DNA of 64,000 nt from contig JBGVKY010000026.1 in the NCBI GenBank assembly GCA_045123995.1, positions 73,600 through 137,599 on the forward strand, read 5' to 3'. This document shows positions 820 through 59,168 of this stretch, piece by piece; the first letter of the stretch is position 1; each line of letters starts with the position of its first letter. Origin of the DNA: Clostridia bacterium (lineage in GTDB: Bacteria > Bacillota > Clostridia > CAKSNL01 > HGM11501). Both the position numbers and the translations under genes were made by a program. Below the pieces are notes generated by a model. It saw only the letters and a list, made by a program, of their open reading frames with translations. It did no database searches and was not told the origin of the DNA.

Positions 820-837
820 GAAAGGGAGGGGATTGAA

Positions 838-23485: not shown

Positions 23486-23490
23486 CAAAA

Positions 23491-29957: not shown

Positions 29958-31028
29958 ATGAAGATTATACATACTGCCGATTTTCATTTAGACTCGGCGA
30001 TGAAAACCAATTTATCAAAAGAAGATGCAAAAACAAGAAAAAATGAAATACTGAATACCTTCGAAAGAATGGTTGATTTCGCCGTCAAAAATGAAGTTAA
30101 AGTTATTTTGATAGCAGGGGATCTGTTCGATACAAAAGCTGTAACTAGAAAGACAAAAAATGTTATTACCGACTGCATAGAAAGAAATCCTCACATTGAT
30201 TTTCTTTACCTAAAAGGAAATCACGACAAAGAGGTTTCTTTATATGAAGAAGAAATGCCTTCAAATCTTAAACTTTTTTCTGATGAATGGACAACTTACA
30301 GCTACGGTGACTTAAAGATTACAGGCGCCAATCTTACAGGCAATACAACTTTGTATAATTCTTTGTTACTTAATAGCTCAGATATTAATATTGTAGTTTT
30401 ACATGGACAGGAAACGAAATATGTAGGCAAGGATAAAACCGAGGCTGTAAATATACCCTTACTTAAAAATCGTTTTATAGATTATCTCGCATTAGGGCAC
30501 ATTCACACCTACAAGGAAGATTTAATTGATAACAGAGGAAGATGGGTTTATTCGGGTTGTCCTGATGGAAGAGGCTATGATGAATGCGGAGTTAAAGGTT
30601 TTGTTTTGATTGACGTAAAAGACGGTATTTTGACTCACGAATTTATTGAGTTTCAGAGCCGTTTGATAACTGAAGTGCCTGTTGATATATCACATTGTCT
30701 TAAGACCACAGAAGTTGATGCAGCTGTTGCCAAGGAGCTTCGAAAGATTGATAAAGATAATTTAGTCAAGGTTAAACTCACGGGTAAAGTATCTGTTGAC
30801 GCAAATTATGATATATCCTATATGGAAGATAAATATAAAAACGATTTCTTCGCTTTCAAAATTGACGGAGATGATGTGGGACTTAAGTTCGATATTGAAG
30901 ATTATAAATATTCTTCATCCCTTAAAGGAGAATTTATAAGAACCGTATTATCTGAGGATTATACCGAGGAAGAAAAAAGAGCAGTAATTGAACTTGGGAT
31001 CCGTGCTCTTTCAGGAGAGGAGATCTGA
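29958..31028 (+). CDS. Metallophosphoesterase, SbcD/Mre11-like nuclease (YhaO-like)
   Basis: DFHLD, GDLFD and GNHD calcineurin-like motifs. Confidence 0.8.
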   Translation: MKIIHTADFHLDSAMKTNLSKEDAKTRKNEILNTFERMVDFAVKNEVKVILIAGDLFDTKAVTRKTKNVITDCIERNPHIDFLYLKGNHDKEVSLYEEEMPSNLKLFSDEWTTYSYGDLKITGANLTGNTTLYNSLLLNSSDINIVVLHGQETKYVGKDKTEAVNIPLLKNRFIDYLALGHIHTYKEDLIDNRGRWVYSGCPDGRGYDECGVKGFVLIDVKDGILTHEFIEFQSRLITEVPVDISHCLKTTEVDAAVAKELRKIDKDNLVKVKLTGKVSVDANYDISYMEDKYKNDFFAFKIDGDDVGLKFDIEDYKYSSSLKGEFIRTVLSEDYTEEEKRAVIELGIRALSGEEI

Positions 31029-31029
31029 C

Positions 31030-33447
31030 ATGAAATTAAAAGAATGTTTTGTGGAAAATTTCGGCAAGCTCCATCACTATAAAATGGAATTTACAGATGG
31101 CCTTAATATCCTTCTCGAAGAAAACGGATTTGGTAAAACCACTTTAGCAGCATTTATAGAAGCTGTTTTTTATGGCCTTGATTCCGGAAGAGGAAAAGAA
31201 AGCAACAGAAAGAAATATGACCCGTGGCAGGGAGGACGCTTCGGCGGAAGTGTTGTTTTTTCCATCGGGGATAAAAACTATCGTTTGGAACGTTTTTTCG
31301 GCAAAAAAGAAAAAGAGGATACATTCACTCTTTATAATAACGATACAGGCCTTATTTCTAAAGACTACACAGAAAACATCGGAACGGAACTTTTCGGCAT
31401 TGACAAAGAATCTTATGAAAAAAGCGCATTTATCCCTCAGGGCAAGGTGGAAGCAGACCTTTCGAAAACAGGTGATATAAATGCCAGACTTTCTGATTTA
31501 TTAGAAAGTGAAAATGATTTAGCTTCTTTTGAGGATGCAATAAAGGCAATTATTGATGCAAAAAATAAATTCAAAAGAACAGGTGGAATAATTAAAACTT
31601 TAGAAAACAGTATAAGCTCTTTGGAGGATGAAATAAAAAAGGCCGAGGAACTTATTGGAATTCAGGAAGATATCAAAAACTACATTTCAGAAAAAAGAAA
31701 AAATAAAAAGAGCGTTCAATTAAATATAGAAAAGGCCCATTCCGACCTGCAGAAAAAAGAGAAGATTGCTTTTTATGAAAATCTCAAAAAAGATGTAGAA
31801 CTGTCCGAGAAGAGGATAGAGGCTTTATTGGCTGAAGTTAAAAAAATTCCTGAAGAAAAAGAACTTTCTGAAATCAGGATAAATACAGAAAACTATAAAA
31901 GCGTTTTAGCCATATACAATTCAAAAAAACTCACTTTTGAAGAAGAGGAGACTTTAAGGGAGCTAAAAGGTGAACTTGGAGAAAAAATTCTTCTGCCCGA
32001 CGAGGTAGGAGAGATAAAGACTCTTTTTTCTAAGTATCATACGTTGAAAGAACTGGTAACCTCGGCTGATTTAACAGACGAGGAAGATAAAAAGCTTTCC
32101 GCTCTTATTTCTTTGTTCGAAAGAAGTAAACCCGAAGAAGAGCTTAATGAAATTCTTTGCGAAGCAAAAAAATGCGAAGAAGGCGGAAGAAATAAGAAGT
32201 TTATACCTCTCATAACAGGGCTTCTCGTTATTTTTGCAGGAATTGTGCCTTTGCTAATGAATAAAGCCATATTCTCTGTACCTTTCTTTATAATTGGAGC
32301 AAGTTTCTTATTTATTTCTGTATTAAAAAATAAAATAGCAACGAAAAAAAACAAAGAATTCGATAGCAAAGTTAAAGCTTTCTTCAAAAAATACGATATT
32401 TCTTATACCGGTGACATACAGTTTTCTGCCAGAGAATTGAAAGAAAAGACAGAAGAGTATTTTACACTTTCAAACAAAAGAAATCAGGCTGATTCCTATA
32501 AGAAAAATGCCGAACTTTTATCTCAGGAAGATAAAATCAGGGAAAAAGCAAAATGTTTTTTTGCCGGATTTGAAAGTGTAGATGAGGCGGAAAGAGAATT
32601 TAATGACTTGATAAAAAAGTCAGGACTCTTATATAATTTAATAAATAAAATTAAAGAGTTGGAATTAGGCAAAGGTCAGATTGATACAGCGCTTGTTAAA
32701 TTAAAGGATTTAACGGACGAATACACTGACAAAGAGCCGGAAACGGCTTATGAATACCTATCTGCCCTCAAAGTAAAAAAAGACAGAGAAGAGGAAGTTT
32801 TGGAAGAAAAAAAAGCTAAGCTTAAGGAGTTTTTAAAGGAAAACGGCGTTTTAGAAATAGAAAACAAAGAAGAAATAAGTAAATCTCAGCTCGAAGCATT
32901 GAATGAAAGTTTAGAATTACTGGATGAAGAAATTATATCTTCCGAAAAACGCCTTATGGACATGGCAACCAAAACAGATTTGCTTCCTGAGCTCATTGAG
33001 GAGAAAGACGCTCTTGACGACAAGCTCAATTTAGCTAAAAAGAAATTATCCATTACAGAAAAAGCTGAAGAGGCTTTAAGTAAGGCAAAAGAAAATCTGG
33101 CCATTAAGTATCTGGGGCCGCTTACGGAAAATTTCGAAAAGTATAAAAAGCTTCTCCTGGCACCCGGTGATGCAAAATTAGATACAGAACTTAACGTAGG
33201 CGTTGTGGAAGCAGGGGAAAAACATTCTTCTGCAAGTTATAGTGCGGGAATAAGGGATATTTTGGCTTTAGCGCTACGGTTTTCACTTATAGAATCTCTT
33301 TTTGAAAATGAAAAACCCCTTGTAATTTTAGATGATCCTTTTGTAAATCTTGATGAAGAAAGGATAAGAGAAGCTAAAAAAGCTCTGGAAATTCTTTCCG
33401 AAGAATATCAGATTTTGTATTTTATCTGCCACGAAAGCCGAAAATAA
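31030..33447 (+). CDS. SbcC/Rad50-like AAA ATPase with long coiled coil and an internal TM hairpin (YhaN-like)
   Basis: ATG at 31030 after AGGAGAGGAG. N-terminal Walker A GFGKTT, C-terminal signature/D-loop ILDDPFVNLD. Two hydrophobic helices around residues 400-445. Confidence 0.75.
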   Translation: MKLKECFVENFGKLHHYKMEFTDGLNILLEENGFGKTTLAAFIEAVFYGLDSGRGKESNRKKYDPWQGGRFGGSVVFSIGDKNYRLERFFGKKEKEDTFTLYNNDTGLISKDYTENIGTELFGIDKESYEKSAFIPQGKVEADLSKTGDINARLSDLLESENDLASFEDAIKAIIDAKNKFKRTGGIIKTLENSISSLEDEIKKAEELIGIQEDIKNYISEKRKNKKSVQLNIEKAHSDLQKKEKIAFYENLKKDVELSEKRIEALLAEVKKIPEEKELSEIRINTENYKSVLAIYNSKKLTFEEEETLRELKGELGEKILLPDEVGEIKTLFSKYHTLKELVTSADLTDEEDKKLSALISLFERSKPEEELNEILCEAKKCEEGGRNKKFIPLITGLLVIFAGIVPLLMNKAIFSVPFFIIGASFLFISVLKNKIATKKNKEFDSKVKAFFKKYDISYTGDIQFSARELKEKTEEYFTLSNKRNQADSYKKNAELLSQEDKIREKAKCFFAGFESVDEAEREFNDLIKKSGLLYNLINKIKELELGKGQIDTALVKLKDLTDEYTDKEPETAYEYLSALKVKKDREEEVLEEKKAKLKEFLKENGVLEIENKEEISKSQLEALNESLELLDEEIISSEKRLMDMATKTDLLPELIEEKDALDDKLNLAKKKLSITEKAEEALSKAKENLAIKYLGPLTENFEKYKKLLLAPGDAKLDTELNVGVVEAGEKHSSASYSAGIRDILALALRFSLIESLFENEKPLVILDDPFVNLDEERIREAKKALEILSEEYQILYFICHESRK

Positions 33448-38445: not shown

Positions 38446-39390
38446 ATGAAAATAGTTGTACTTGATGCGAAAACTTTAGGAGACGATATATCTTTAGATA
38501 TATTAAAAAAAGCGGGGGAGTGTACCTTTTATAAAGAAACTGCCCCGTCAGAAATTCGCGAAAGAATTATTGATGCGGATGTTCTTGTGTTAAATAAATT
38601 GAAGCTCAACGAGGGCAATCTTGCTGATGCTGAAAACTTAAAGCTTATTTGTGTAACTGCCACAGGCTATGATAATATTGATATTGAATACTGTAAAAAA
38701 AGAAATATAGCCGTTTCCAATGTGGTGGGATATTCTTCTCATTCCGTGGCTCAAAACACTTTAGCACAGGTTTTGGCACTTTACACGAATCTTTTTGCTT
38801 ATAACAACTTTGTAAGAAGCGGAGATTATACTAAAAGCGGTGTTGCAAACAGACTTACCCCTGTATACCACGAGCTTTTCGGGAAAACCTGGGGAATAAT
38901 AGGATACGGAAACATAGGAAAAGAGGTAGGGGAGGCAGCTAAAGCTTTAGGATGTAACATCCTTTATACAAGACATAAAAATGATGGTATTTCCGTGGAT
39001 TTGAAAACTTTGTGTGAAAAATCTGATATCATAACAATACACACCCCATTAAATGAAGATACAAGAGCTATTATAAACGAAGAAAAGATTTTCATTATGA
39101 AGGATGGAGTTTTAATAGTAAATGCAGCCAGAGGGGCTGTTACTGACGAAAAAGCCATTGTAAAAGGAATAAAAAGCGGGAAAATTGGATTTTTCGGATC
39201 AGATGTTTATTCCGAAGAGCCTTTTAGCAAAGAGCATCCCTTTAATGAAATAAAAGATTATCCTAATGTGCTTTTAACTCCGCACATGGCCTGGGGATCT
39301 TTTGAAGCCAGAATACGTTGCATTGAAGAAATATATGAAAATATAAAGGCTTTTAACGAGGGAAAGTTAAGAAACCGGGTGGATTTATAA
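38446..39390 (+). CDS. D-isomer-specific 2-hydroxyacid dehydrogenase (glycerate/hydroxypyruvate reductase family)
   Basis: GIIGYGNIGKEV NAD-binding motif and catalytic R/E/H region. Confidence 0.8.
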   Translation: MKIVVLDAKTLGDDISLDILKKAGECTFYKETAPSEIRERIIDADVLVLNKLKLNEGNLADAENLKLICVTATGYDNIDIEYCKKRNIAVSNVVGYSSHSVAQNTLAQVLALYTNLFAYNNFVRSGDYTKSGVANRLTPVYHELFGKTWGIIGYGNIGKEVGEAAKALGCNILYTRHKNDGISVDLKTLCEKSDIITIHTPLNEDTRAIINEEKIFIMKDGVLIVNAARGAVTDEKAIVKGIKSGKIGFFGSDVYSEEPFSKEHPFNEIKDYPNVLLTPHMAWGSFEARIRCIEEIYENIKAFNEGKLRNRVDL

Positions 39391-39427
39391 AAAACAGCTA
39401 TTACGGAAAACGTAATAGCTGTTTTTT
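39390..39427. terminator. Bidirectional terminator
   Basis: AAAAACAGCTATTACG-GAAAA-CGTAATAGCTGTTTTT. Confidence 0.85.
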
Positions 39428-40473
39428 TACTTTTCTTCGGGAAATTCACGGCTTCGCATAATTTCTTTTTTCGCTTTCGCACTGTATTGTGCATAGAATT
39501 TATGTGTTACCTCAATGTTTTTGTGACCCATAAGTTCTGCGACCATTTTAATATCGACTCCTTCTTCCAAAAGAGTGCATGCAAAGGTTCTTCTGAGTGC
39601 GTGAGGTCTTGTTTTATCCTTATTTGTTATTCCTGCCATAAGACAGTAGGTTTTAAGATTGTGTTCAACGCTGGAAATGGTAAGTCTTTCGCCGTTTCTT
39701 GATACAAAAAGAGCATCTGTCTTATAATTTTGTTCGTTTCGCCATTCTATGTAGCTTAAAAGTTCATTTTCAACCTGAACAGGCATAAAAATCTCATCTT
39801 CATTTCCGCCTTTTCTGGTAACAGTAAAGGAAGAAGTTTCGAAATCCACATCAGAAACGTCTAAATTAACCAATTCGCTAACACGAACACCTGTTCCTAA
39901 ATAGGTGAGATACAGCGCTATATCGCGTTTTTTTCTGTTTAGGTATTCGGTGAGGAGGCGGCCTGTAAAATAGTTTTCACCGTTCAATATTACATCCATA
40001 AGACGCATGGTTTCCTGAATAGTCAGTGGTTTTTTTATTTTCTGAACCAGTTTATTCATATCAATCTTAAGAGTAACATTTTGGGAAATTTTATCTGTTT
40101 TATAAAGATAAGAAAACAAGCTCCTTAAAGAAGACATTTTACGGTTTATCCCGAAAGAAGAATTTCTGTGGGTTCTTGTGTAGCTTTCTCCGTCAGATGT
40201 AACGTAGGAGAGTGTGTACTGCTTTAAATAAGATTTATATTCAAGCAGGTCATCTACAGAAATTTTATCCATATCAGCTTCAGAGAAAGACTCCAATGAA
40301 TCATAATTAAAACGACCTGATTCTATTAAAAAATTTAAGAAGATACGAACGTCAAGAGCGAGAGCAAGCTGTGTATTTATTGATTCGCCGTCGTAATAGT
40401 AGTCAATGAATCTGAATACAAAATCAGGTAATTCTGAAAGACGGCTTCTTAATTTAGTTTGTTTATCTATCAT
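39427..40473 (-). CDS. Tyrosine site-specific recombinase (Xer-like, phage-integrase family)
   Basis: C-terminal catalytic motifs HALRRTFA, LMGH and Y in KFYAQYS. N-terminal SAM-like core-binding domain. Confidence 0.8.
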   Translation of the reverse strand: MIDKQTKLRSRLSELPDFVFRFIDYYYDGESINTQLALALDVRIFLNFLIESGRFNYDSLESFSEADMDKISVDDLLEYKSYLKQYTLSYVTSDGESYTRTHRNSSFGINRKMSSLRSLFSYLYKTDKISQNVTLKIDMNKLVQKIKKPLTIQETMRLMDVILNGENYFTGRLLTEYLNRKKRDIALYLTYLGTGVRVSELVNLDVSDVDFETSSFTVTRKGGNEDEIFMPVQVENELLSYIEWRNEQNYKTDALFVSRNGERLTISSVEHNLKTYCLMAGITNKDKTRPHALRRTFACTLLEEGVDIKMVAELMGHKNIEVTHKFYAQYSAKAKKEIMRSREFPEEK

Positions 40474-40523
40474 TGTGAAAAACTCCTTAAAAGCCCGGGG
40501 AGGGCTAAAATACGTTAATCCAA

Positions 40524-40554
40524 TTAAGATAAATAGTTATTTATCTTAATTTAT
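40524..40554. repeat. Perfect 31-bp palindrome AATTAAGATAAATA-GTT-TATTTATCTTAATT
   Basis: Read from sequence. Located 50 bp upstream of the recombinase start and downstream of pgm. Confidence 0.8.
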
Positions 40555-40599
40555 TTATAAATCAGCCTTAATCTCTCCTGTCGGATTTTTTAGATTTTT

Positions 40600-42303
40600 T
40601 TATAAAACCAGCTTTTTTAAATCCTCGATTAACTTATCTGATAATTCTTCCGAAGACTTTTTGTCTGGAGCTTTTGCCCCTACATAAATTTTGAGTTTTG
40701 GTTCTGTTCCTGAAGGACGAAGCACTGCCCAGATTCCGCCTTCAATTTCAAAGTATAATACATTTGATTTTGGTAATATGAGCTTTTCGGTTTCGCCGGT
40801 TTCAAAATTCTTTTTGAGCTGTTTATTATAATCCCTTAAAGCCAATACCTTCTTCCCTGCTAAAAGTGCGGGAGGATTATTTCTTACATTTTCCATAGAA
40901 GCTTTTATTTCATCAGCTCCGGTTAATCCCTCTCTCACTATGTTGTAAACGCCTTCTTTATACCAGCCATACTTATTGTAAAGCTTTGTGAGAGCATCGT
41001 AAAGTGTCATGCCTTTTTGGTTGTAATAGGTTGCCATTTCGGCTATAAGCATAGAAGATACAACACCGTCTTTATCTCTAGCGTGAATTCCTGCAAGATA
41101 TCCGTAGCTTTCTTCAAAACCGAAAACATAGTGCATATTTCCGTTTTCTTCGTGTTTATAAATAAGCTCCCCTATAAACTTAAAGCCTGTAAGACATTCA
41201 AACATGGTAACGCCGTAATTCTCTGCAATTGAACGGATTATATCTGTAGTTACGATTGTTTTAACAACAAAAGGATTTTGAGGCATACTTCCCTTTTTGG
41301 CGCGTTCTGAAAGAATATATTCACATAAAAGAGCGCCTATCTGATTACCGGTAAGACAAACGTATTCGCCACAGGAATTTTTAACAACAACGCCCACTCT
41401 GTCGCAGTCCGGGTCTGTTCCCAGAATAAGATCAACATCGTGTTTTTTAGCTATTTCAATACCTAAATTAAAGCCTTCTTTTTCTTCAGGATTAGGCGAT
41501 TTAACAGTAGGAAAATCTCCGTCAGGAGTACATTGCTCCTTAACTTCATATACATTTTTAAGTCCTATATGAGAAAAAGCTTTCATTACGGGTTTATATC
41601 CCGCTCCGTGAAACGGAGTATATATAATCTTGAAACTCTCCCCTGCTTTTTCTGTAATTTCAGGATTTATTCTCTGTTTATAAACCTCTTTAAGGAATTC
41701 GTTTTCTGTTTCTTCTCCGATAATCTCTATAAGCTCCGGATTAACGGGATTTTCAAATTCCTGGAATAAAGGCATTGATTTTATGAGTTTTACTATCTCC
41801 GCTGCAACTTCAGGGCCTATCTGGCATCCGTCATCTCCGTAAACTTTATATCCGTTGTATTTGGCCGGATTGTGGCTAGCGGTTATCATGATTCCTGCCG
41901 CACATTTATAAAATCGGGTTGCGAAACTTACCAACGGAACAGGTTTTAATTCATCAAAAAGATATACTTTTATGCCGTATCTTGTGAGGGTTTCGGCAGA
42001 TTCTTTTGCAAATTCTTTTGACTTGTGTCTTGAATCGTAACCTATTAAAACGGAAAGGTTTTCTTTGTTCAGGCTTTTTAAGTAAAGAGCCAGTGCTTTT
42101 GTTGCACGTCTCACAACGTATATATTCATTCTGTTTGTTCCGGCAGCTATTATTCCCCTTAAGCCCGCAGTACCGAATTCCAGTTCTGCACCAAAACGTT
42201 CCTTTATCTCTTCTTCGTTATCTTTGATGCTTAAAAGTTCGTTTTTAAGCTCAAAATCCAAGTTTTCATACGAAAGCCATTCGTTGTATTTTTCTTTATG
42301 CAT
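40600..42303 (-). CDS. Phosphoglucomutase/phosphomannomutase (alpha-D-phosphohexomutase)
   Basis: Active-site TASHNP and GTAGLRG motifs. Confidence 0.9.
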   Translation of the reverse strand: MHKEKYNEWLSYENLDFELKNELLSIKDNEEEIKERFGAELEFGTAGLRGIIAAGTNRMNIYVVRRATKALALYLKSLNKENLSVLIGYDSRHKSKEFAKESAETLTRYGIKVYLFDELKPVPLVSFATRFYKCAAGIMITASHNPAKYNGYKVYGDDGCQIGPEVAAEIVKLIKSMPLFQEFENPVNPELIEIIGEETENEFLKEVYKQRINPEITEKAGESFKIIYTPFHGAGYKPVMKAFSHIGLKNVYEVKEQCTPDGDFPTVKSPNPEEKEGFNLGIEIAKKHDVDLILGTDPDCDRVGVVVKNSCGEYVCLTGNQIGALLCEYILSERAKKGSMPQNPFVVKTIVTTDIIRSIAENYGVTMFECLTGFKFIGELIYKHEENGNMHYVFGFEESYGYLAGIHARDKDGVVSSMLIAEMATYYNQKGMTLYDALTKLYNKYGWYKEGVYNIVREGLTGADEIKASMENVRNNPPALLAGKKVLALRDYNKQLKKNFETGETEKLILPKSNVLYFEIEGGIWAVLRPSGTEPKLKIYVGAKAPDKKSSEELSDKLIEDLKKLVL

Positions 42304-53060: not shown

Positions 53061-53921
53061 TTACCCATTCTTTTTTGATTCGGAAAATCTTAATGCTAAT
53101 TGAGAAAACTCCTGCATCGAAAGGGTTTCACCTCTTAAATTTGAGTCGTAACCCGCTTTTTCGAGAATTGCTCTGATTTCTTCCTTGCTTCCGTAGTTAT
53201 TGGAATTAGAAAGAGCATTCAGCATTGTTTTCCTTCTTTGTGCAAAGGATGCTTTGACTAACCTAAAATAGTCTTTTTCAGGTGTCTCTATAGGCGGAGA
53301 ATCAAGCAAAGTCAATTTAACTACTGCCGAATCTACTTTAGGCGCAGGAATAAAGCTTTCCTTTGGCACAAGGGCTATGATTTCGGCGTCTGCATAGTAA
53401 GAAATAGCTAAAGTAAGAGCGCCGTAATCCTTTGTCCCTGCCTTAGCCACAATTCTGTCCGCTACTTCCTTCTGAACCATGACCACTATGTTTCTGAAAG
53501 GTAGTTTTTCTTCCAGGAGCTTCATCAAGATAGGACTCGTAAGATAGTAAGGCAAGTTAGCCGCTACGCTTACATTCATTCCCTGAAATTCCTCTTCAAG
53601 AAGCTTTTTAAGGTCGGTTTTCATTACGTCAGAAAAAAGAACTTTAATATTGTCAAAGCCAACCAAAGTGGATTTTAAGACCGGTTCCAGTGTCTTATCA
53701 ATTTCTAAAGAAATTACTTTCTTTGCACACGTACCTAAAACTGCAGTAAGAGTTCCGAAACCAGGGCCTATTTCAAGGATACCGTCAGCATCTGCCGCGT
53801 CTGCTATTTTTTTAAGTATACTTGCATCTGTAAGGAAGTTCTGGCCAAAGCCTTTTTTGAAGCTGAAACCAAACTCGTCACACAGATGCTTTATCACTGT
53901 AGGATTAGTTAAATCGTACAT
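53061..53921 (-). CDS. rsmA: 16S rRNA (adenine1518/1519-N6)-dimethyltransferase
   Basis: GQNFL and LEIGPGFGTLT motifs. Confidence 0.9.
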   Translation of the reverse strand: MYDLTNPTVIKHLCDEFGFSFKKGFGQNFLTDASILKKIADAADADGILEIGPGFGTLTAVLGTCAKKVISLEIDKTLEPVLKSTLVGFDNIKVLFSDVMKTDLKKLLEEEFQGMNVSVAANLPYYLTSPILMKLLEEKLPFRNIVVMVQKEVADRIVAKAGTKDYGALTLAISYYADAEIIALVPKESFIPAPKVDSAVVKLTLLDSPPIETPEKDYFRLVKASFAQRRKTMLNALSNSNNYGSKEEIRAILEKAGYDSNLRGETLSMQEFSQLALRFSESKKNG

Positions 53922-53924
53922 GGC

Positions 53925-55319
53925 TTAAACTGGATATGCGCTGTTTTCAGCGTCTACAAGATTTGAGTCCACCTTGTATTTACGGGCCTGTCTTTCCTTG
54001 AAGTATTTAACGGCAACCTGACCGAAAAGTGCATAGGAAAGAACATCTTCTTCCTGCTCCATATACTCTGCCATTTCTGCTCTGTATTTATCAAGCTCGG
54101 CAGGAATCTTATCTGCAGGTCTACAGGTTATGGTTTTTTCGTCGCCGATTATCTTCTTCCTTATTTCATCGGAAATCGGAACGGGAGTTCTGCCGTATTC
54201 CCCTCTTACAATGCCCTTTGTTTCGTTGGAAATCATTTTATATCTTTCGCCGCAGATTACGTTCAAAACAGCCTGAGTACCTACAATCTGGCTTGTAGGG
54301 GTAACGAGAGGAGGAAATCCTAAATCTTCACGAACCTTGGGAACTTCCATGAGAACTTCTTCAAGCTTGTCTTCTTTTCCTTGCTGTTTAAGCTGAGAAA
54401 CAAGGTTTGAAAGCATACCCCCGGGAACCTGATAGAGAAGTGTGTTTACGTCAACAGATAAAAGTTTGGGATCAAGCAATCCGCTCTTTATATATTCTGC
54501 TCTTAATGACTTGAAATAGTCGGCTATTTCGGTAAGGACCTCAAGCTTTAAGCCTGTATCGTAAGGCGTTCCTTTAAGTGTTTCTACCAAAGGCTCCGTG
54601 GGAGGCTGGCTTGTTCCCATTGCCATGGGAGAAAGAGCAGTATCTACTATATCACAACCTGCTTCAATGGCCTTTAAATAGGTCATGGAAGCAACACCGC
54701 TGGTATAGTGAGTGTGAAGCTCAATGGGAATTTTAACATTCTGCTTCAAAGCTTTTACTAAATCTGCTGCAGCATAGGGAACCAAGAGCCCTGCCATATC
54801 TTTTATGCAAATACTGTCAGCGCCCATTTCTTCAAGTTCCTTAGCCAGTTTTACGAAGCTGTCATGTGTGTGAGGACCGCCGATTGTATAAGAAAGTGCT
54901 GCCTGAACATGGCCTTTTTCCTTTTTTGTTGCTTCAATTGCTGTTCTTAAATTTCTTGTATCATTCAATGCATCGAAAATTCTTATTATATCTATACCAT
55001 TAGCAATGGATTTTTGCACAAAATATTCAACAACATCATCCCCGTAATGCTTATAGCCAAGTATATTCTGACCTCTGAAAAGCATCTGGAGTTTTGTATT
55101 TTTCACTTTATCTCTTATTTTTCTTAATCTTTCCCAGGGGTCTTCATTAAGGAATCTTAAGCATGAATCAAATGTAGCTCCTCCCCATGCTTCCAAAGCG
55201 TGATAACCCGCTTTGTCAAGCATTTCAAGAGCCGGGAGCATTTGTTCTGTTGTCATTCTTGTTGCAATCAGTGACTGATGCGCATCACGAAGAACGGTTT
55301 CTGTAATTTTAACACCCAT
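53925..55319 (-). CDS. Pyruvate/oxaloacetate carboxyltransferase domain protein (OadA/5S-like, no biotinyl domain)
   Basis: TIM-barrel carboxyltransferase start MGVKITETVLRDAHQSL. The C-terminus lacks an AMKM motif. Confidence 0.8.
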   Translation of the reverse strand: MGVKITETVLRDAHQSLIATRMTTEQMLPALEMLDKAGYHALEAWGGATFDSCLRFLNEDPWERLRKIRDKVKNTKLQMLFRGQNILGYKHYGDDVVEYFVQKSIANGIDIIRIFDALNDTRNLRTAIEATKKEKGHVQAALSYTIGGPHTHDSFVKLAKELEEMGADSICIKDMAGLLVPYAAADLVKALKQNVKIPIELHTHYTSGVASMTYLKAIEAGCDIVDTALSPMAMGTSQPPTEPLVETLKGTPYDTGLKLEVLTEIADYFKSLRAEYIKSGLLDPKLLSVDVNTLLYQVPGGMLSNLVSQLKQQGKEDKLEEVLMEVPKVREDLGFPPLVTPTSQIVGTQAVLNVICGERYKMISNETKGIVRGEYGRTPVPISDEIRKKIIGDEKTITCRPADKIPAELDKYRAEMAEYMEQEEDVLSYALFGQVAVKYFKERQARKYKVDSNLVDAENSAYPV

Positions 55320-55343
55320 TTAATTATCTCCTATCTAAATGAA

Positions 55344-56552
55344 TTAAGAATAAATTGCCAGGAAAACACCGGCCGCAACTGCAGAGCCGATTACGCCCGC
55401 AACATTAGGCCCCATGGCATGCATCAAAAGGAAGTTTGATGGATTTTCCTCCTGTCCTACCTTCTGGCTCATTCTTGCAGCCATAGGAACGGCAGAAACG
55501 CCTGCTGAACCGATTAAAGGATTAATCTTACCACCGGAAAATTTATACATAAGTTTACCGAATAATACTCCGCCTGCAGTGCTTATGGAAAATGCCACAA
55601 GACCGAGTGCTATGATTTTAATAGTATCCCAGGTAAGGAATGTATCTGCGGTAGCTGTTGCACCCACAGTAACGCCCAAGAATATTGTAACTATATTCAT
55701 AAGCTCGTTCTGTGCGGTTTTTGTAAGTCTTTCTGTTACTCCGCATTCCTTGAAAAGATTCCCCAGCATAAGCATACCTACAAGAGGCACTGCATCAGGA
55801 ACAATGAGTCCAACCACGATAGTAACTGTAATCGGGAAAATTATCTTTTCCTTTTTTGATACTGGGCGAAGCTGCCCCATGACAACGCTTCTCTCCTTTT
55901 TGGTTGTGAGAGCTTTCATTATAGGGGGCTGAATCATAGGAATCAACGCCATATAAGAGTATGCTGCCACAGCTATAGCTGAAAGCAATTCAGGCGCCAG
56001 AGTCTTTGTTACATAAATTGCCGTGGGTCCGTCGGCGCCACCGATTATCCCGATAGCTGATGCCTGTTTTTCCGTGAATCCTATAAGATTTGCACCGAGA
56101 TATGTTATGAAAACACCAAGCTGTGCTGCTGCACCAAGCAATATGCTCTTGGGATTTGCTATTAAAGGGCCAAAGTCCGTCATGGCACCGATTCCGAGGA
56201 AAATCAAAGGAGGATATATACCAAGTTTAACACCTAAGTAAAGAAGGTCTAAAAGTCCCCCCTCTTTTGCGATTTTAGCGAAATCTATACCTTTTTCAAC
56301 CGCTTCGGCTCCGGTGAAATAATCGGCGTGAAAAACGCCGGCTCCTGGCAGATTTGCAAGAAGCATACCAAAAGCAATCGGAAGCAAAAGCAAAGGTTCA
56401 TACTGCTTTACGATTGCAAGATAGAAAAGGACACAGGCAATTGCTACCATCACAAGGTTTAACGGGTTTCCGTTTTCACCAAACAATATAGAAACACCTG
56501 TTTTATCGAGGAAGTTTAACATACCTTCCCCTAATATATTTAAGAAATTCAA
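55344..56552 (-). CDS. Na+-transporting decarboxylase beta subunit (OadB/GcdB family)
   Basis: Multi-TM protein at characteristic OadB length with Gly-rich helices. Confidence 0.8.
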
Positions 56553-56566
56553 TGTGTTTCCCTCCC

Positions 56567-56962
56567 TTAGTTAAGGGTTACCAATACGTCGCCTGTATTA
56601 ACTGACTGACCCTGATTTACTGCAACAGATGCTACAACACCGTCAGCTTCAGCCATAATCTCATTTTCCATCTTCATGGCTTCAAGTATAACTAAAACCT
56701 GTCCCTTTGTAACAGAATCTCCTGCTTTCACCTTTACAGCATTGATAGTTCCGGGCATCGGAGCATTAACTGTTACGTTGCCTGATACCTGAGGAGCCTT
56801 CTGGCTCTGAGGAGCAGCCTGTACCGGAGCAGGAGTTGCCTGAGGAGGTGCCTGAACCACCGGAGCCACGGGCATTGCTGCCTGAGAAACGCCAAGTTCT
56901 TCTACTTCTACTTCATATGCTTTTCCGTTTACTTTTATATTGAATTTTCTCATTATAAACAC
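56567..56962 (-). CDS. Biotin carboxyl carrier protein (biotinyl domain)
   Basis: EAMKMENEI biotinylation motif with an Ala/Pro-rich linker. Confidence 0.85.
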
Positions 56963-56979
56963 CCTTTTTCTTTAATATT

Positions 56980-57288
56980 TTAGTTTTTGGTTTTGAGTCT
57001 TCTGTATGAACGAATACGAAGATTGCTTACCGATGTGTTGAGTGAAGAAGCTAATGCGGCAGCAAGAACCGCTATAAGTTCCTCTTCGTCAGTGTTATTT
57101 GAAATTGTTTTTGGGGTTGTTTCCGGAGCCTTTACTTCTGATTTATTAGTTTTCACCTCGTTATTTTCAGAAGGTGCAAATACCTTCATAAAGGTAAGAA
57201 CAAGCATCAATATAATTAAGACCGAGAAAATAACTAATACGCCGAGTAAAGTTATGGATAAAACCGGTATAAGGTTATCACCTGACAT
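56980..57288 (-). CDS. Decarboxylase small membrane subunit (OadG-like)
   Basis: Single N-terminal TM helix, about 100 aa. Position within the decarboxylase operon. Confidence 0.6.
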   Translation of the reverse strand: MSGDNLIPVLSITLLGVLVIFSVLIILMLVLTFMKVFAPSENNEVKTNKSEVKAPETTPKTISNNTDEEELIAVLAAALASSLNTSVSNLRIRSYRRLKTKN

Positions 57289-57301
57289 TTATAATACCTC
57301 C

Positions 57302-58747
57302 TTAAAAACAGAATTTCCCGTGTTTTTTAAGAGGAATATCTTCTCTTTTGTCATAGAGCATCTCTAAAGCTGCTGCTACCAAGGGACGGGTTTCGGCAGG
57401 GTTTATGACATCGTCTATAAATCCTAATTGTGCCGCAGAGAATGCACTTGCTGCATGGTTGCAATAATCTCTCTTTGCTTCATCCTTGGTCATTCCGTCT
57501 TTAATTTTATCTTCGTAAAGAAGTACCGTTGCCATATCCGGAGAAAATACTCCAATTGTGGCATCAGCCCAAGCTATAACCTGATCAGCACCTACAGCTC
57601 TTGAACCCATTGCTATTCCGGCGCTTGTGCAGGCTTTAGAGCAAATAACAGTTACCTTAGGTACTGTTGCGTTGCTATATGCATATACAAGCTTGGAAAC
57701 ATATTTGGAAAGTCCGTTTTTCTCTTCTTCGTAAGAAGCCTTATAACCCTCTGTGTCGCTGAAAGTCAATACGGGAATGTTGAAGCTGTCTGCAAAGCTT
57801 ATAAATCCGGCAGCCTTTTCAGAAGCCTTAATATCTATCTCCCCGTTATTTGCAACTACTGCAACAGTTCTTCCGTTGATACGTATAAATCCTGTTAATA
57901 TATTTTCTGCGTAAAAAGGAGAAATCTCAAAAAATTCAAAGTTGTCAGCCACTTGCTTTATAACATCTGCCATATGAAATCCGGGGGCCTGCAACTGCTC
58001 TGAAACTCTGTTTAAATCATCTTTGCATTCTGTTTCGGGAGAAAGCTCTTCTGCATTTCCAGGAAGTAAAGCAATGAGCTCTCGTATCTTTAATACTGCT
58101 TCGGTGTCATTTTCTGCTAAAACATGAGCATTTCCGTTTTCTTTTGCATTTACTTCTCCTCCGGCCATATCCTCAGATGTTATGATTTTGCCGTCTTCTC
58201 CGCATACAGAAGCCCCGTTTAACATAAGCGCACTCTTTTTGGTCATAACTAAAAAATCAGACATTAAAGGAGTGAAAGATGCACCGCCCGCACAGATTCC
58301 AAAAATTGCTGAAATCTGCAAAATGGAACCGGAAGCTTTAGCCGCTTTGCAACTTAATTCACCTAAAGCTGCCAGAGCATCAAGACCTTCGTCAAATCTT
58401 ATGCCTTTAGAATCAAGCATTGATACCAAAGGAGCTCCTGCCTTAAGTGCCATATTTGTTATTTTAGAAATCTTTTTTGCCTGCTCTACACCAAATGCGC
58501 CGCCTTCCGCGTTACCATCCTGAGCATAAACAAAAACCAACCTTGAGTCAACTGTTCCGTAGCCTGTTATAACTCCTTCCTGAGTTAAACCGTCTTTTCT
58601 GCCTGAAAACATATCTGTTTCAATAAAGCTCCCCTCATCAAAGAGAAGGTTTATTCTGTCCCTAGCAGACATGCTTCCGTTTTCGGATTCGTTGGCTTTT
58701 GAAATAATAGTATTTTTACGATTCAAAAGTTCCTGAAGCTTGTCCAA
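57302..58747 (-). CDS. Acyl-CoA carboxyltransferase (methylmalonyl-CoA decarboxylase alpha / propionyl-CoA carboxylase beta-like, 12S-type)
   Basis: Two crotonase-like CT halves. TTG start after AGGGGGT. Confidence 0.8.
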   Translation of the reverse strand: MDKLQELLNRKNTIISKANESENGSMSARDRINLLFDEGSFIETDMFSGRKDGLTQEGVITGYGTVDSRLVFVYAQDGNAEGGAFGVEQAKKISKITNMALKAGAPLVSMLDSKGIRFDEGLDALAALGELSCKAAKASGSILQISAIFGICAGGASFTPLMSDFLVMTKKSALMLNGASVCGEDGKIITSEDMAGGEVNAKENGNAHVLAENDTEAVLKIRELIALLPGNAEELSPETECKDDLNRVSEQLQAPGFHMADVIKQVADNFEFFEISPFYAENILTGFIRINGRTVAVVANNGEIDIKASEKAAGFISFADSFNIPVLTFSDTEGYKASYEEEKNGLSKYVSKLVYAYSNATVPKVTVICSKACTSAGIAMGSRAVGADQVIAWADATIGVFSPDMATVLLYEDKIKDGMTKDEAKRDYCNHAASAFSAAQLGFIDDVINPAETRPLVAAALEMLYDKREDIPLKKHGKFCF

Positions 58748-58817
58748 AAAAATACCCCCTATTATATTAAATTTATAAATTATTTATTATTTAATCCCGC
58801 AAAAGCGGAAAAATAAT

Positions 58818-59168
58818 CTAATGATTGCAATGTGCTCCCGGATCAAAAAAACCCTTTAAGCTTACATTCATATCTTCATCGAAGCCGTACCTGTCGCATA
58901 AATCCTTAAGTGATTTATTGAGGCAAGTTCCTTTTTTGGCCCCTCTTTTTTCAAAATAGCTTAACATACTTAAAAACATAAGTGTTCTTGCATCATCATA
59001 AGGAGCGTCTATTTCTGTTATATAAACAGTATCATGTCTGATTTCGCAAATGCCTTTGCCTGTAAATTTTCCGTCTTCATTGACAGCGAAAAGCAACTGA
59101 CCTTCCTTAAGATCAGGATATAAACTTTTTGCTACTAAAATTTCCTCTATGGGATGTATTTTATACAC
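58818..59168 (-). CDS. Hypothetical protein (116 aa)
   Basis: ORF with coding-like composition. No motif I can name. Confidence 0.4.
   Translation of the reverse strand: MYKIHPIEEILVAKSLYPDLKEGQLLFAVNEDGKFTGKGICEIRHDTVYITEIDAPYDDARTLMFLSMLSYFEKRGAKKGTCLNKSLKDLCDRYGFDEDMNVSLKGFFDPGAHCNH

What the first reader, a model, noticed from the sequence alone, without database searches (positions are those of the whole stretch)
53925..58747. Five-gene biotin decarboxylase locus with two different carboxyltransferases sharing one carrier and one Na+ pump
The order on the minus strand is a 12S-type acyl-CoA carboxyltransferase, an OadG-like subunit, a free biotin carrier, an OadB-type membrane subunit and a 5S-type pyruvate/oxaloacetate carboxyltransferase without its own biotinyl domain. 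The gene set could give a methylmalonyl-CoA (or glutaconyl-CoA) decarboxylase, an oxaloacetate decarboxylase or a transcarboxylase-like activity from one operon.
Basis: partly seen in the sequence, partly recalled or inferred. Interest (0 to 1): 0.5.

Follow-up and report, generated by a model that had tools for sequence, protein, structure and literature searches.

The report
Two-headed biotin sodium-pump operon
The five genes are real and form one tightly packed operon that joins an oxaloacetate-driven sodium pump to a second, unusually diverged acyl-CoA carboxyltransferase; the layout is widespread in gut Clostridia but, in the literature I could search, has not been studied as a unit.

Summary
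Five minus-strand genes sit at exactly the stated coordinates: a 12S-type acyl-CoA carboxyltransferase (CT12S), an OadG-like anchor, a free biotin carrier, OadB, and a 5S-type carboxyltransferase (CT5S) with no biotin domain. Gaps are 13-24 nt and I found no convincing internal terminator.

The layout is not a local oddity. I found it in 114 loci from Lachnospiraceae (including Lachnospira eligens and Enterocloster), Christensenellaceae and uncultured Clostridia. 101 of them have OadB and 13 lack it.

The constant core is CT12S + carrier + CT5S, which is the parts list of a transcarboxylase. OadB is a frequent but optional module.

The "methylmalonyl-CoA decarboxylase" reading is poorly supported:
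- CT12S scores 437 bits on the mmdA model, against 984 for a genuine MmdA that sits beside mutase and epimerase genes.
- No mutase or epimerase lies near any of the two-transferase operons found.
- Conserved active-site motifs are altered, although the gene is under purifying selection (dN/dS about 0.07).

Glutaconyl-CoA decarboxylase is also disfavoured.

Best reading: an oxaloacetate-decarboxylating Na+ pump whose carboxybiotin is shared with a second transferase, most plausibly producing malonyl-CoA from acetyl-CoA. That last step is inferred, not shown.

Classification: new variant of a known kind. Interest is moderate.

The parts
58748..58817 (-). Non-coding leader and probable promoter region upstream of the first gene
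   Evidence: This is a 70-nt AT-rich gap after the upstream ORF, containing a small CCGC-TTTT-GCGG hairpin. Relatives always have a 70-150 nt gap here, several with clear hairpin + T-run terminators after the upstream gene. The RBS AGGGGGTATT and the TTG start are conserved. The promoter itself is not identified: consensus matches were no more frequent than in shuffled sequence.
57302..58747 (-). CT12S: diverged 12S/PCC-beta-type acyl-CoA carboxyltransferase, 481 aa, TTG start
   Evidence: - Family: PF01039, E=6e-111; TIGR01117 437 bits.
- Closest solved structure: 1vrg, E=1e-108.
- AlphaFold model: pLDDT 85.6, TM 0.91-0.92 to PCC-beta and transcarboxylase 12S.
- Oxyanion hole 1, G154-G155, is kept. 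Hole 2 is S375-A376 instead of G-A. I378 occupies the PccB D422 position. There are three deletions relative to canonical enzymes.
- dN/dS 0.073 against the 85%-identical orthologue.
56980..57288 (-). OadG-family membrane anchor, 102 aa
   Evidence: PF04277, E=6e-15; TIGR01195 50.5 bits against a cut-off of 36. It has one N-terminal hydrophobic helix (residues about 12-30) and a C-terminal EELIAVLAAALA segment.
56567..56953 (-). Free biotin carboxyl carrier protein, 128 aa from the ATG at 56953 (the ORF also opens at a GTG at 56962)
   Evidence: PF00364, E=2e-22. The best NCBIfam models are small carrier subunits, including MmdC, all below their cut-offs. The protein has an N-terminal [19 protein letters not shown] segment, an Ala/Pro-rich linker and biotinyl K94 in EAMKME.
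55344..56552 (-). OadB-type Na+-translocating carboxybiotin decarboxylase, 402 aa
   Evidence: PF03977, E=3e-165; TIGR01109 519 bits against a cut-off of 191. It scores 412 bits against Salmonella OadB (6iva), and the GGADGPT and [17 protein letters not shown] motifs are intact.
53925..55319 (-). CT5S: 5S/OadA-type oxaloacetate/pyruvate carboxyltransferase without a biotinyl domain, 464 aa
   Evidence: HMGL-like + PYC_OADA domains; NF008985 813 bits against a cut-off of 718. Closest solved structures are PycB 5ks8 (E=5e-155), V. cholerae OadA 2nx9 (6e-152) and transcarboxylase 5S 1rqb (2e-139). The motifs RDAHQS, IKDMAG and HTHYTSG are present.
53061..53921 (-). rsmA/ksgA 16S rRNA dimethyltransferase, probably a co-transcribed passenger
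   Evidence: TIGR00755 248 bits against a cut-off of 171. It starts 3 nt after the CT5S stop codon. The same adjacency is seen in all short-clade relatives but not in Lachnospiraceae.

Best explanation
The operon encodes one membrane-anchored, biotin-dependent complex built around a shared carboxybiotin carrier.

1. CT5S takes the carboxyl group of oxaloacetate and puts it on the biotin of the free carrier protein, releasing pyruvate.
2. The swinging carboxybiotin then has two destinations. At OadB, held to the soluble parts by OadG, it is decarboxylated and the energy is used to export Na+. This is the bulk, energy-conserving route, a PEP carboxykinase + oxaloacetate decarboxylase bypass of pyruvate kinase.
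3. At CT12S the carboxyl group is instead passed to an acyl-CoA, most plausibly turning acetyl-CoA into malonyl-CoA for lipid synthesis without spending ATP.

In effect this is a transcarboxylase core (CT12S + carrier + CT5S) onto which a Na+ pump module (OadB + OadG) has been grafted.

Shown: gene content, operon structure, intact pump and CT5S motifs, conserved pairing of the two transferases, purifying selection on CT12S, and the absence of methylmalonyl-CoA pathway genes nearby.

Inferred: the direction of flux, the sharing of the carrier, that CT12S is catalytically active, and the identity of its acyl-CoA substrate.
For: Pump half:
- CT5S passes the curated short-form OadA model, and OadB and OadG pass their family cut-offs.
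- OadB keeps the conserved GGADGPT and [17 protein letters not shown] motifs when aligned to solved Salmonella OadB.
- A separate biotin carrier alongside OadA, OadB and a small anchor subunit is an experimentally known Firmicute arrangement in E. faecalis (PMC6193673).
- A GTP-dependent PEP carboxykinase follows the operon directly in relatives L005/L006.

Pairing of the two transferases:
- 58 of 65 judgeable genomes found via CT12S carry CT12S..carrier..OadB..CT5S.
- 39 of 43 judgeable loci found via CT5S have a CT12S-type gene and a carrier immediately upstream. 30 of these have OadB and 9 do not.
- Overall there are 114 such loci, 101 with OadB and 13 without. In the OadB-less versions, such as [Clostridium] aerotolerans, carboxyl transfer between the two transferases is the only chemistry available.

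CT12S is functional:
- dN/dS is 0.073.
- Oxyanion hole 1 (GG) is invariant in the clade.
- The fold is confidently predicted and matches transcarboxylase 12S at TM 0.91.

Substrate:
- Ile occupies the position where Ile, rather than Asp, broadens specificity to acetyl-CoA (PMC7835884).
- The P. shermanii transcarboxylase also converts acetyl-CoA + oxaloacetate to malonyl-CoA + pyruvate (PMC8085960).

Context: neighbours are housekeeping genes, with no mutase, epimerase, citrate lyase or glutamate-fermentation genes.
Against: - No enzyme assay exists for any two-transferase version.
- Oxaloacetate decarboxylase activity was not detected in C. thermocellum, which carries a related cluster (PMC5414155, PMC8303734).
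- CT12S has lost several motifs that are nearly invariant in active relatives. DSGGARIQEG has become DSKGIRFDEG, the QPxxLAG loop is deleted, and YGGAY has become CTSAG, which replaces the first Gly of oxyanion hole 2 with Ser. It evolves 3-4 times faster than OadB and CT5S. Its activity is therefore not assured.
- I could not check whether this genome lacks acetyl-CoA carboxylase, so the malonyl-CoA role has no direct genomic support here.
- No fatty-acid synthesis genes are linked to the operon in any locus.
- Many butyrivibrio (Lachnospiraceae) genomes are predicted to have at least some acetyl-CoA carboxylase subunits (PMC4478896).
Confidence: 0.5

Rival explanations
1. Dual decarboxylase. 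The complex pumps Na+ using either oxaloacetate (through CT5S) or (S)-methylmalonyl-CoA or malonyl-CoA (through CT12S). Both transferases load the same carrier and both fluxes end in decarboxylation at OadB.
For: The closest curated family for CT12S is mmdA. Its closest structures are PCC-beta and transcarboxylase 12S. Genuine methylmalonyl-CoA decarboxylase operons use the same OadG-carrier-OadB module in the same order. A few two-transferase operons (L016, L017, L023) carry a fully canonical transferase scoring 923 bits on the mmdA model.
Against: The mmdA score is 437 bits, against 923-984 for canonical proteins. No mutase, MeaB or epimerase lies in the 64-kb window or beside any of the two-transferase operons, whereas the genuine MmdA operon (L087) and the one exceptional locus L019 have them adjacent. 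In a survey of human gut genomes, Lachnospiraceae are listed under the acrylate route for propionate production rather than among the typical succinate-pathway taxa (PMC9403272), yet they carry this operon. The OadB-less versions cannot be decarboxylases.
Confidence: 0.15
2. Oxaloacetate decarboxylase only. CT12S has become a non-catalytic scaffold (a pseudoenzyme) that organises the soluble head of the complex, as the 12S hexamer does in transcarboxylase, and only CT5S turns over.
For: The first Gly of oxyanion hole 2 is replaced, the DSGGAR motif has degenerated, a conserved loop is deleted and the N-terminus is shortened. dN is 0.087, against 0.022-0.029 for CT5S and OadB. Only 62% of the positions that are at least 97% conserved in canonical relatives are retained.
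Against: The replacement motif (CTSAG) is itself conserved within the clade, and the hole 1 GG is invariant. dN/dS of 0.07 indicates strong constraint. Oxyanion holes use backbone amides, so Gly to Ser need not inactivate the enzyme (inference). Independent lineages, including ones with canonical motifs, keep a CT12S in the same operon. OadB-less clusters would have no function if CT12S were inert. The E. faecalis enzyme is described with four subunits and no such scaffold (PMC6193673).
Confidence: 0.2
3. Carboxylase operating in reverse. The complex mainly fixes CO2 onto pyruvate (anaplerosis for the citrate synthase encoded in the window) and onto acetyl-CoA. It would be driven either by the Na+ gradient through OadB running backwards or by a biotin carboxylase (PycA/AccC-like) encoded elsewhere that loads the same carrier.
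For: The best solved-structure match for CT5S is, narrowly, a two-subunit pyruvate carboxylase beta subunit, and CT5S exceeds the cut-off of the domain-type PycB model NF006761. Citrate synthase at 19486-20856 needs oxaloacetate. In-vitro reversal of these Na+ pumps has been reported; this is from my own knowledge of the Dimroth and Hilpert work and was not checked here.
Against: No biotin carboxylase (ATP-grasp) gene is among the annotated ORFs of the 64-kb window, and none turned up among the recurrent neighbour families of related loci. CT5S lacks the fused carrier domain of PycB and falls below the PycB equivalog cut-off. A PEP carboxykinase next to the operon in relatives gives a simpler oxaloacetate source.
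Confidence: 0.1

Closest known systems
Na+-translocating oxaloacetate decarboxylase, four-subunit Firmicute form (Enterococcus faecalis OadA/OadB/OadD/OadH; PMC6193673)
   Same: It has a biotin-free carboxyltransferase alpha subunit, a separate small biotin carrier, the OadB pump and a small single-helix anchor. CT5S passes the curated short-form OadA model.
   Different: This operon adds a 481-aa acyl-CoA-type carboxyltransferase as its first gene. It lies among housekeeping genes rather than in a citrate-fermentation cluster with citrate lyase. The anchor is an OadG-family protein rather than OadH.
Methylmalonyl-CoA decarboxylase Na+ pump (Veillonella/Propionigenium MmdABCD(E); Lutispora-type operon, locus L087)
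   Same: The first four genes are in the same order: acyl-CoA carboxyltransferase, OadG-like protein, carrier, OadB.
   Different: The genuine operon is fused to mutase, MeaB and epimerase genes and has no CT5S. Its transferase scores 984 bits on the mmdA model, against 437 here, and keeps all four canonical motifs.
Transcarboxylase of Propionibacterium (12S, 5S, 1.3S; EC 2.1.3.1)
   Same: It has the same three soluble parts: a 12S-fold transferase (TM 0.91 to 1on3), a 5S-fold transferase without a biotin domain (E=2e-139 to 1rqb), and a small carrier with an N-terminal anchoring segment and a flexible linker.
   Different: The operon here additionally encodes OadB and OadG, so the complex should be membrane-bound and able to release CO2 while pumping Na+. 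CT5S is below the 5S equivalog cut-off (568 bits, cut-off 827). There is no methylmalonyl-CoA pathway context.
Clostridium thermocellum Cthe_0699-0701 / Clo1313_1523-1526, annotated as oxaloacetate decarboxylase and used in models as a putative transcarboxylase for malonyl-CoA
   Same: It combines a carboxyl transferase, a biotin carrier and a 5S/OadA-like gene in one cluster (PMC3561251, PMC5414155). Its transferase was recovered from the membrane fraction (PMC3039559).
   Different: As described in those papers the cluster is listed without an OadB pump subunit, and oxaloacetate decarboxylase activity was not detected. Its function is a modelling assumption, not a measurement. I did not retrieve its sequence, so its relationship to the window proteins is untested.
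Glutaconyl-CoA decarboxylase (GcdABCD; PMC7145394)
   Same: The general architecture matches: a soluble transferase head, a carrier with an Ala/Pro linker, a GcdD/OadG-like anchor and a GcdB/OadB pump.
   Different: GcdA is about 65 kDa and belongs to a different branch. No GcdA structure is among the matches at E<=1e-20. There is no glutamate-fermentation context and no second transferase.

Membership tests
Na+-translocating oxaloacetate decarboxylase (EC 7.2.4.2) | Alpha subunit with a 5S/OadA-type carboxyltransferase domain | tested here: met
   HMGL-like + PYC_OADA domains. NF008985 (oxaloacetate decarboxylase subunit alpha, short form) 813 bits against a cut-off of 718. Caveat: the CT5S of an OadB-less cluster also passes this model, so the label does not by itself prove a pump.
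Na+-translocating oxaloacetate decarboxylase (EC 7.2.4.2) | Beta subunit OadB with conserved carboxybiotin-decarboxylase and Na+-site motifs | tested here: met
   TIGR01109 519 bits against a cut-off of 191. 412 bits to solved Salmonella OadB, with GGADGPT and [17 protein letters not shown] intact.
Na+-translocating oxaloacetate decarboxylase (EC 7.2.4.2) | Gamma (OadG) anchor and a biotinylated carrier with the MKM motif | tested here: met
   TIGR01195 50.5 bits against a cut-off of 36. The carrier has EAMKME with K94. It is a separate polypeptide, as in E. faecalis (PMC6193673).
Na+-translocating oxaloacetate decarboxylase (EC 7.2.4.2) | Na+-dependent, avidin-sensitive decarboxylation of oxaloacetate | not testable with these tools
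   This needs membranes or purified complex.
Na+-translocating oxaloacetate decarboxylase (EC 7.2.4.2) | A single carboxyltransferase in the complex | tested here: not met
   A second, acyl-CoA-type transferase is the first gene of the same operon.
Methylmalonyl-CoA decarboxylase Na+ pump (EC 7.2.4.3) | Alpha subunit belonging to the MmdA group | tested here: not met
   TIGR01117 gives 437 bits (cut-off 998.8). A genuine mutase-linked MmdA scores 984 and a canonical transferase scores 923. Identity to canonical proteins is 42-45%. Three of the four near-invariant motifs are altered.
Methylmalonyl-CoA decarboxylase Na+ pump (EC 7.2.4.3) | Genomic link to methylmalonyl-CoA mutase and epimerase (succinate-to-propionate pathway) | tested here: not met
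   None is present in the 64-kb window or beside any two-transferase operon. They are adjacent in the canonical control L087 and in L019, which has a canonical transferase. The rest of the genome could not be examined.
Methylmalonyl-CoA decarboxylase Na+ pump (EC 7.2.4.3) | Beta (OadB-like), gamma (carrier) and delta (OadG-like) subunits | tested here: met
   All three are present in the same order as in L087. The equivalog models for MmdC and MmdD are below their cut-offs (112 bits vs 200; 24 bits vs 150).
Transcarboxylase (methylmalonyl-CoA carboxytransferase, EC 2.1.3.1) | A 12S-type and a 5S-type carboxyltransferase plus a small separate biotin carrier encoded together | tested here: met
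   The CT12S model matches 1on3 at TM 0.91. CT5S matches 1rqb at E=2e-139. A 128-aa carrier lies between them. The trio is conserved in 114 loci.
Transcarboxylase (methylmalonyl-CoA carboxytransferase, EC 2.1.3.1) | 5S subunit meeting the curated 5S equivalog | tested here: not met
   NF008984 gives 568 bits against a cut-off of 827.
Transcarboxylase (methylmalonyl-CoA carboxytransferase, EC 2.1.3.1) | Soluble complex without membrane subunits | tested here: not met
   OadB and OadG are encoded inside the operon. Thirteen related loci do lack OadB.
Transcarboxylase (methylmalonyl-CoA carboxytransferase, EC 2.1.3.1) | Carboxyl transfer between oxaloacetate and an acyl-CoA | not testable with these tools
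   This needs an enzyme assay.
Glutaconyl-CoA decarboxylase (EC 7.2.4.5) | GcdA-type alpha subunit (about 65 kDa) | tested here: not met
   CT12S is 481 aa. No GcdA chain is among the 44 solved-structure sequences at E<=1e-20, and all top fold matches are PCC-beta, 12S or AccB.
Two-subunit pyruvate carboxylase (PycA/PycB) | PycB with a fused C-terminal biotinyl domain, and a biotin carboxylase partner | tested here: not met
   CT5S ends at residue 464 with no Biotin_lipoyl domain. NF010644 gives 668 bits against a cut-off of 734. No ATP-grasp biotin carboxylase is among the annotated ORFs of the window. The rest of the genome was not examined.

The most novel reading that the evidence does not exclude
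In many gut Clostridia this complex would be a three-way carboxybiotin hub that replaces acetyl-CoA carboxylase. Oxaloacetate made by PEP carboxykinase would donate its carboxyl group both to a Na+ pump, conserving extra energy in place of pyruvate kinase, and to acetyl-CoA, giving ATP-free malonyl-CoA synthesis. Catabolic energy conservation and lipid precursor supply would then be physically coupled in one membrane machine.
Probability: 0.3. Interest if true: 0.75.

Novelty: new variant of a known kind. Interest (0 to 1): 0.5.

Why it matters
All described biotin-dependent Na+ pumps have one carboxyltransferase and one substrate. An operon that hard-wires two different transferases to one carrier and one pump implies a branched carboxyl-transfer machine.

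It is present in abundant, cultivable human and animal gut bacteria such as Lachnospira eligens and Enterocloster, so it can be tested directly.

If the second head makes malonyl-CoA, that would explain how Clostridia reported to lack a standard acetyl-CoA carboxylase obtain their lipid precursor. It would also change ATP-yield estimates for gut fermenters and offer an ATP-free malonyl-CoA route for metabolic engineering.

If the second head is inert, it would be a clear case of an enzyme recruited as a scaffold.

Either way, current automatic annotation ("acyl-CoA carboxylase subunit beta" or "methylmalonyl-CoA decarboxylase alpha" next to "oxaloacetate decarboxylase") is misleading for pathway reconstruction, for example in predicting propionate production.

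Tried and rejected
- An exact look-up of the window's CT12S found nothing. The 99%-identical P0001 located the source lineage, an uncultured Clostridia MAG (GCA_045595485.1).
- Rfam and tRNA scans of the whole window found nothing, so there is no riboswitch or leader RNA upstream of the operon.
- The promoter scan gave no more matches than shuffled sequence, so I name no promoter.
- I looked for methylmalonyl-CoA mutase, MeaB, epimerase and BirA near all loci, using the Lutispora proteins as queries. They occur only in the canonical control L087 and in one deltaproteobacterial locus, L019.
- I clustered 979 neighbouring ORFs from 114 loci and annotated the 20 most recurrent families, hoping for fab, acc, citrate lyase or glutamate-fermentation genes. 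Only housekeeping genes recur.
- I annotated 41 further ORFs of the window for metabolic context. There is no fab, acc or mutase gene.
- I could not test whether the genome lacks acetyl-CoA carboxylase.
- Two papers I wanted, a Tong 2013 review under the id I recalled and Repizo 2013 on the E. faecalis complex, are not held. I used other sources for the same facts.
- Literature searches found no paper that describes the two-transferase OadB operon as such. The library is limited to open-access text.
- I rejected glutaconyl-CoA decarboxylase, a PycB belonging to a system elsewhere, and horizontal acquisition. Against the last, the chromosomal neighbourhood is shared across families (ScpAB-YtfJ-DacB-RluB upstream; HI0933-like, Cmk, PlsC and IspH-S1 downstream).

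Full report
**What is there.**
- CT12S, a 481-aa carboxyl-transferase-domain protein (57302-58747).
- A 102-aa OadG-family protein (56980-57288).
- A biotinyl carrier (56567-56962; the ATG at 56953, seven bases after an AGGGTG Shine-Dalgarno sequence, is the more likely start and gives 128 aa).
- A 402-aa OadB (55344-56552).
- CT5S, a 464-aa HMGL-like + PYC_OADA protein with no biotinyl domain (53925-55319).

The gaps are 13, 17 (or 26), 14 and 24 nt, and every gene has its own ribosome-binding site. The only terminator-like matches inside the operon are weak hairpins within coding sequence. The only strong minus-strand terminator in the scanned region is at 50409-50380. rsmA starts 3 nt after the CT5S stop codon and is probably co-transcribed. 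Upstream of CT12S is a 70-nt AT-rich gap. In relatives this gap is 70-150 nt and often begins with a clear hairpin + T-run after the preceding gene. The RBS AGGGGGTATT and the unusual TTG start are conserved, so the unit starts at CT12S. Rfam and tRNA scans found nothing in the window.

**The individual parts.**
- CT5S passes NCBI's curated equivalog for the short, biotin-free "oxaloacetate decarboxylase subunit alpha" (NF008985, 813 bits, cut-off 718). It fails the equivalogs for PycB (668/734) and transcarboxylase 5S (568/827). By sequence it is almost equally close to solved PycB, V. cholerae OadA and P. shermanii 5S.
- CT5S carries the motifs RDAHQS, IKDMAG and HTHYTSG. From my own knowledge of OadA and pyruvate carboxylase, these contain the metal ligands and the carbamylated lysine.
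- OadB scores 412 bits against solved Salmonella OadB, with GGADGPT and [17 protein letters not shown] unchanged.
- The carrier has an N-terminal [19 protein letters not shown] segment, an Ala/Pro-rich linker and biotinyl K94 in EAMKME. This is the three-part build described for GcdC (PMC7145394).
- OadG has one N-terminal hydrophobic helix and a conserved C-terminal segment.
- A biotin-free OadA plus a separate carrier, OadB and a small anchor is an experimentally established Firmicute oxaloacetate decarboxylase (PMC6193673).

**CT12S is the odd part.**
- Its closest relatives form a small clade of about 26 sequence clusters, 460-486 aa long and at least 49% identical. All are from uncultured Clostridia. 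Ordinary 514-516-aa "MmdA/PCC-beta" proteins are only 42-45% identical.
- On the mmdA model it scores 437 bits. A genuine MmdA from Lutispora scores 984, and a canonical transferase from a two-transferase operon scores 923. Even the genuine MmdA is just under the model's cut-off of 998.8, so the comparison between scores matters more than the cut-off.
- About 90 canonical sequences share four nearly invariant motifs: DSGGARIQEG, GPCAGGAVY, ANQPxxxAGxLD and RKAYGGAY. The window protein has DSKGIRFDEG, GICAGGASF, ANN-----GEID and SKACTSAG, plus deletions of 8 and 7 residues elsewhere.
- Published structures define two oxyanion holes. Hole 1 is Gly-Gly/Ala and stabilises the acyl-CoA enolate. Hole 2 is Gly-Ala/Gly and stabilises carboxybiotin (bioRxiv 10.64898/2026.02.06.704326).
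- From the alignment to 1vrg, hole 1 is G154-G155, retained and invariant in the clade. Hole 2 is S375-A376, where the first Gly has become Ser.
- The residue equivalent to PccB D422 / AccB I420, which tunes propionyl-CoA versus acetyl-CoA use (PMC7835884), is I378.
- The gene is not decaying. dN/dS against the 85%-identical orthologue is 0.073, although dN (0.087) is 3-4 times that of OadB (0.029) and CT5S (0.022).
- The replacement motif CTSAG is itself conserved. An AlphaFold model is confident (pLDDT 85.6) and superposes on PCC-beta and transcarboxylase 12S at TM 0.91-0.92. No GcdA structure is among the sequence matches at E<=1e-20.

**How general the arrangement is.**
- Every short-clade relative has the same five genes followed by rsmA, in the same neighbourhood: lysA, scpA, scpB, DUF2953, ytfJ, dacB-like, rluB, a 116-aa ORF, then the operon.
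- A scan of one genome per species, using an alignment of the short clade, returned 80 loci. Of the 65 that extend far enough to judge, 58 have CT12S..carrier..OadB..CT5S in that order. Four (Lacrimispora, including cultured [Clostridium] aerotolerans) have CT12S-OadG-like-carrier-CT5S without OadB. Three are otherwise arranged. These include Lachnospira eligens, Enterocloster, Pilosibacter and Christensenellaceae.
- That scan was seeded from CT12S peptides, so I repeated the test from the other side. A metagenome scan with an alignment of CT5S proteins returned 80 loci at 65-76% identity. Of the 43 with at least 4.6 kb upstream, 30 have the full arrangement, 9 have CT12S-carrier-CT5S without OadB, 1 has carrier-CT5S, and 4 have CT5S alone.
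- Altogether there are 114 loci with the two-transferase cluster, 101 with OadB and 13 without.
- In a neighbour-joining tree (approximate, no support values) the operon occurs with at least three CT12S lineages: canonical, the short clade, and a large Lachnospiraceae clade with its own motif variants (DCAGLRLQEA, CGGG, YGSAY/NGTAG, and an insertion replacing QPxxLAG).
- The constant core is therefore CT12S + carrier + CT5S, and the pump is a frequent but dispensable addition.

**Context argues against the propionate pathway.**
- The genuine MmdA control (Lutispora, L087) sits in mutase-large / B12-small / MeaB / epimerase / MmdA / OadG / carrier / OadB, followed by BirA. It has no CT5S.
- Using those proteins as queries, I found no mutase, MeaB or epimerase in the window or beside any two-transferase operon. 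The only exception is one deltaproteobacterial locus, L019. It has a canonical transferase, and its 5S homologue carries a biotin domain and lies on the other strand.
- The 20 most recurrent neighbour families across the 114 loci are housekeeping: ScpA/B, YtfJ, D-Ala-D-Ala carboxypeptidase, RluB, thiamin pyrophosphokinase, NfnAB-like proteins, an RpiR-like regulator, an HI0933-like flavoprotein, Cmk and IspH-S1. Several of these also lie downstream in the window, which indicates vertical inheritance at one ancestral locus.
- There are no citrate lyase, glutamate-fermentation or fab genes.
- In a survey of human gut genomes, Lachnospiraceae are listed under the acrylate route for propionate, and the 12S/5S transcarboxylase was recognised only in Propionibacterium and Corynebacterium (PMC9403272).
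- A GTP-dependent PEP carboxykinase, a phosphoglycerate-mutase-like gene and glucose-6-phosphate isomerase directly follow the operon in L005/L006. That fits a glycolytic PEP to oxaloacetate to pyruvate route.

**Most likely mechanism.**
- The pump half is well supported. Oxaloacetate is decarboxylated via CT5S, the carrier and OadB/OadG, with Na+ export.
- CT12S almost certainly works on the same carrier. It is the only carrier in the operon, the pairing is conserved, and in OadB-less clusters carboxyl transfer between the two heads is the only possible biotin chemistry.
- Without a methylmalonyl-CoA source, the sensible direction is carboxylation of an abundant acyl-CoA. Acetyl-CoA to malonyl-CoA is the obvious candidate.
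- There is precedent. [quoted passage not shown] Its transferase is found in the membrane fraction (PMC3039559). Acetyl-CoA carboxylase subunits are predicted inconsistently in butyrivibrios, while fab genes are near-universal there (PMC4478896).
- None of this is a measurement on a two-transferase complex, and oxaloacetate decarboxylase activity was not detected in C. thermocellum (PMC5414155, PMC8303734).

**Rivals.**
- Oxaloacetate decarboxylase only, with CT12S as a non-catalytic scaffold: about 0.2. This is favoured by the altered hole 2, the degraded DSGGAR motif and the faster evolution. It is disfavoured by strong purifying selection, conserved replacement motifs, canonical transferases in some operons and the OadB-less clusters.
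- Reverse operation as a carboxylase, driven by the Na+ gradient or by a biotin carboxylase encoded elsewhere: about 0.1.

The decisive genomic test is whether accABCD, a biotin carboxylase and mutase/epimerase are present in the same genomes.

**Verdict.** The methylmalonyl-/glutaconyl-CoA decarboxylase readings are not supported. The arrangement is common in public genomes and piecemeal-annotated. The open-access literature I could search does not describe it as a unit. I class it as a new variant of a known kind, a biotin-dependent Na+ pump with a transcarboxylase core, of moderate interest.

Noticed in passing
window 53061-53921 (-): rsmA/ksgA starts 3 nt after the CT5S stop codon and keeps this position in all short-clade relatives. 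A ribosome-maturation gene therefore appears to ride on the transcript of a central-metabolism operon. It is not adjacent in Lachnospiraceae.
   Followed up: partly
window 58818-59168 (-): A 116-aa ORF with no Pfam or NCBIfam match lies directly upstream of the operon. It is conserved (52-78% identity) at the same position in every short-clade relative and absent from the Lachnospiraceae loci.
   Followed up: partly
L066 11498-12352; L040 11470-12219: In Lachnospira eligens and [Clostridium] aerotolerans the OadG-like gene is 249-284 aa long. A lipoprotein-like signal and an extra, probably extracytoplasmic, domain of about 150 aa precede the transmembrane helix and the OadG C-terminal segment. 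This enlarged anchor is kept even where OadB is missing.
   Followed up: no
L005 13643-15481; L006 9272-11110: A GTP-type PEP carboxykinase, then a phosphoglycerate-mutase-family gene and glucose-6-phosphate isomerase, follow rsmA directly in one branch of the short clade. This links the operon to glycolysis there.
   Followed up: partly
L139 9977-11062 and about 30 other Lachnospiraceae-type loci: An RpiR-family regulator (HTH_6 + SIS domains) sits immediately downstream of CT5S in 31 loci. It is a candidate sugar-phosphate-sensing regulator of the operon. It is absent from the window.
   Followed up: no
L040 12735-14147: The curated model NF008985, 'oxaloacetate decarboxylase subunit alpha', is also passed (742 bits, cut-off 718) by the CT5S of a cluster with no OadB. 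The name would be assigned even where no Na+-pumping decarboxylase can be formed from the cluster.
   Followed up: partly
window about 39000-40600: Cumulative GC skew peaks near 40 kb, and gene orientation switches there from mostly plus strand to all minus strand (convergent). A tyrosine recombinase (Phage_integrase family, 39427-40473) sits exactly at the switch. This looks like a replication terminus with a Xer-type recombinase, or an integration site.
   Followed up: no
window 52-2589 (+): A NuoF-like Fe-S subunit (apparently cut by the window start) is followed by a 583-aa [FeFe]-hydrogenase with an N-terminal 2Fe-2S/NuoG-like domain. This is the layout of a multimeric, possibly electron-bifurcating, hydrogenase.
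   Followed up: no
window 19486-20856 and 23422-25831 (+): Citrate synthase and a three-subunit 2-oxoacid:ferredoxin oxidoreductase are encoded in the window. The cell therefore consumes oxaloacetate for biosynthesis as well.
   Followed up: no
window 4199-6238 (+) and 30988-33447 (+): Two large ORFs (679 and 819 aa) have no Pfam match at E<=1e-5. The first follows a GntR regulator and an ABC ATPase. The second overlaps the end of a calcineurin-like phosphoesterase gene.
   Followed up: no
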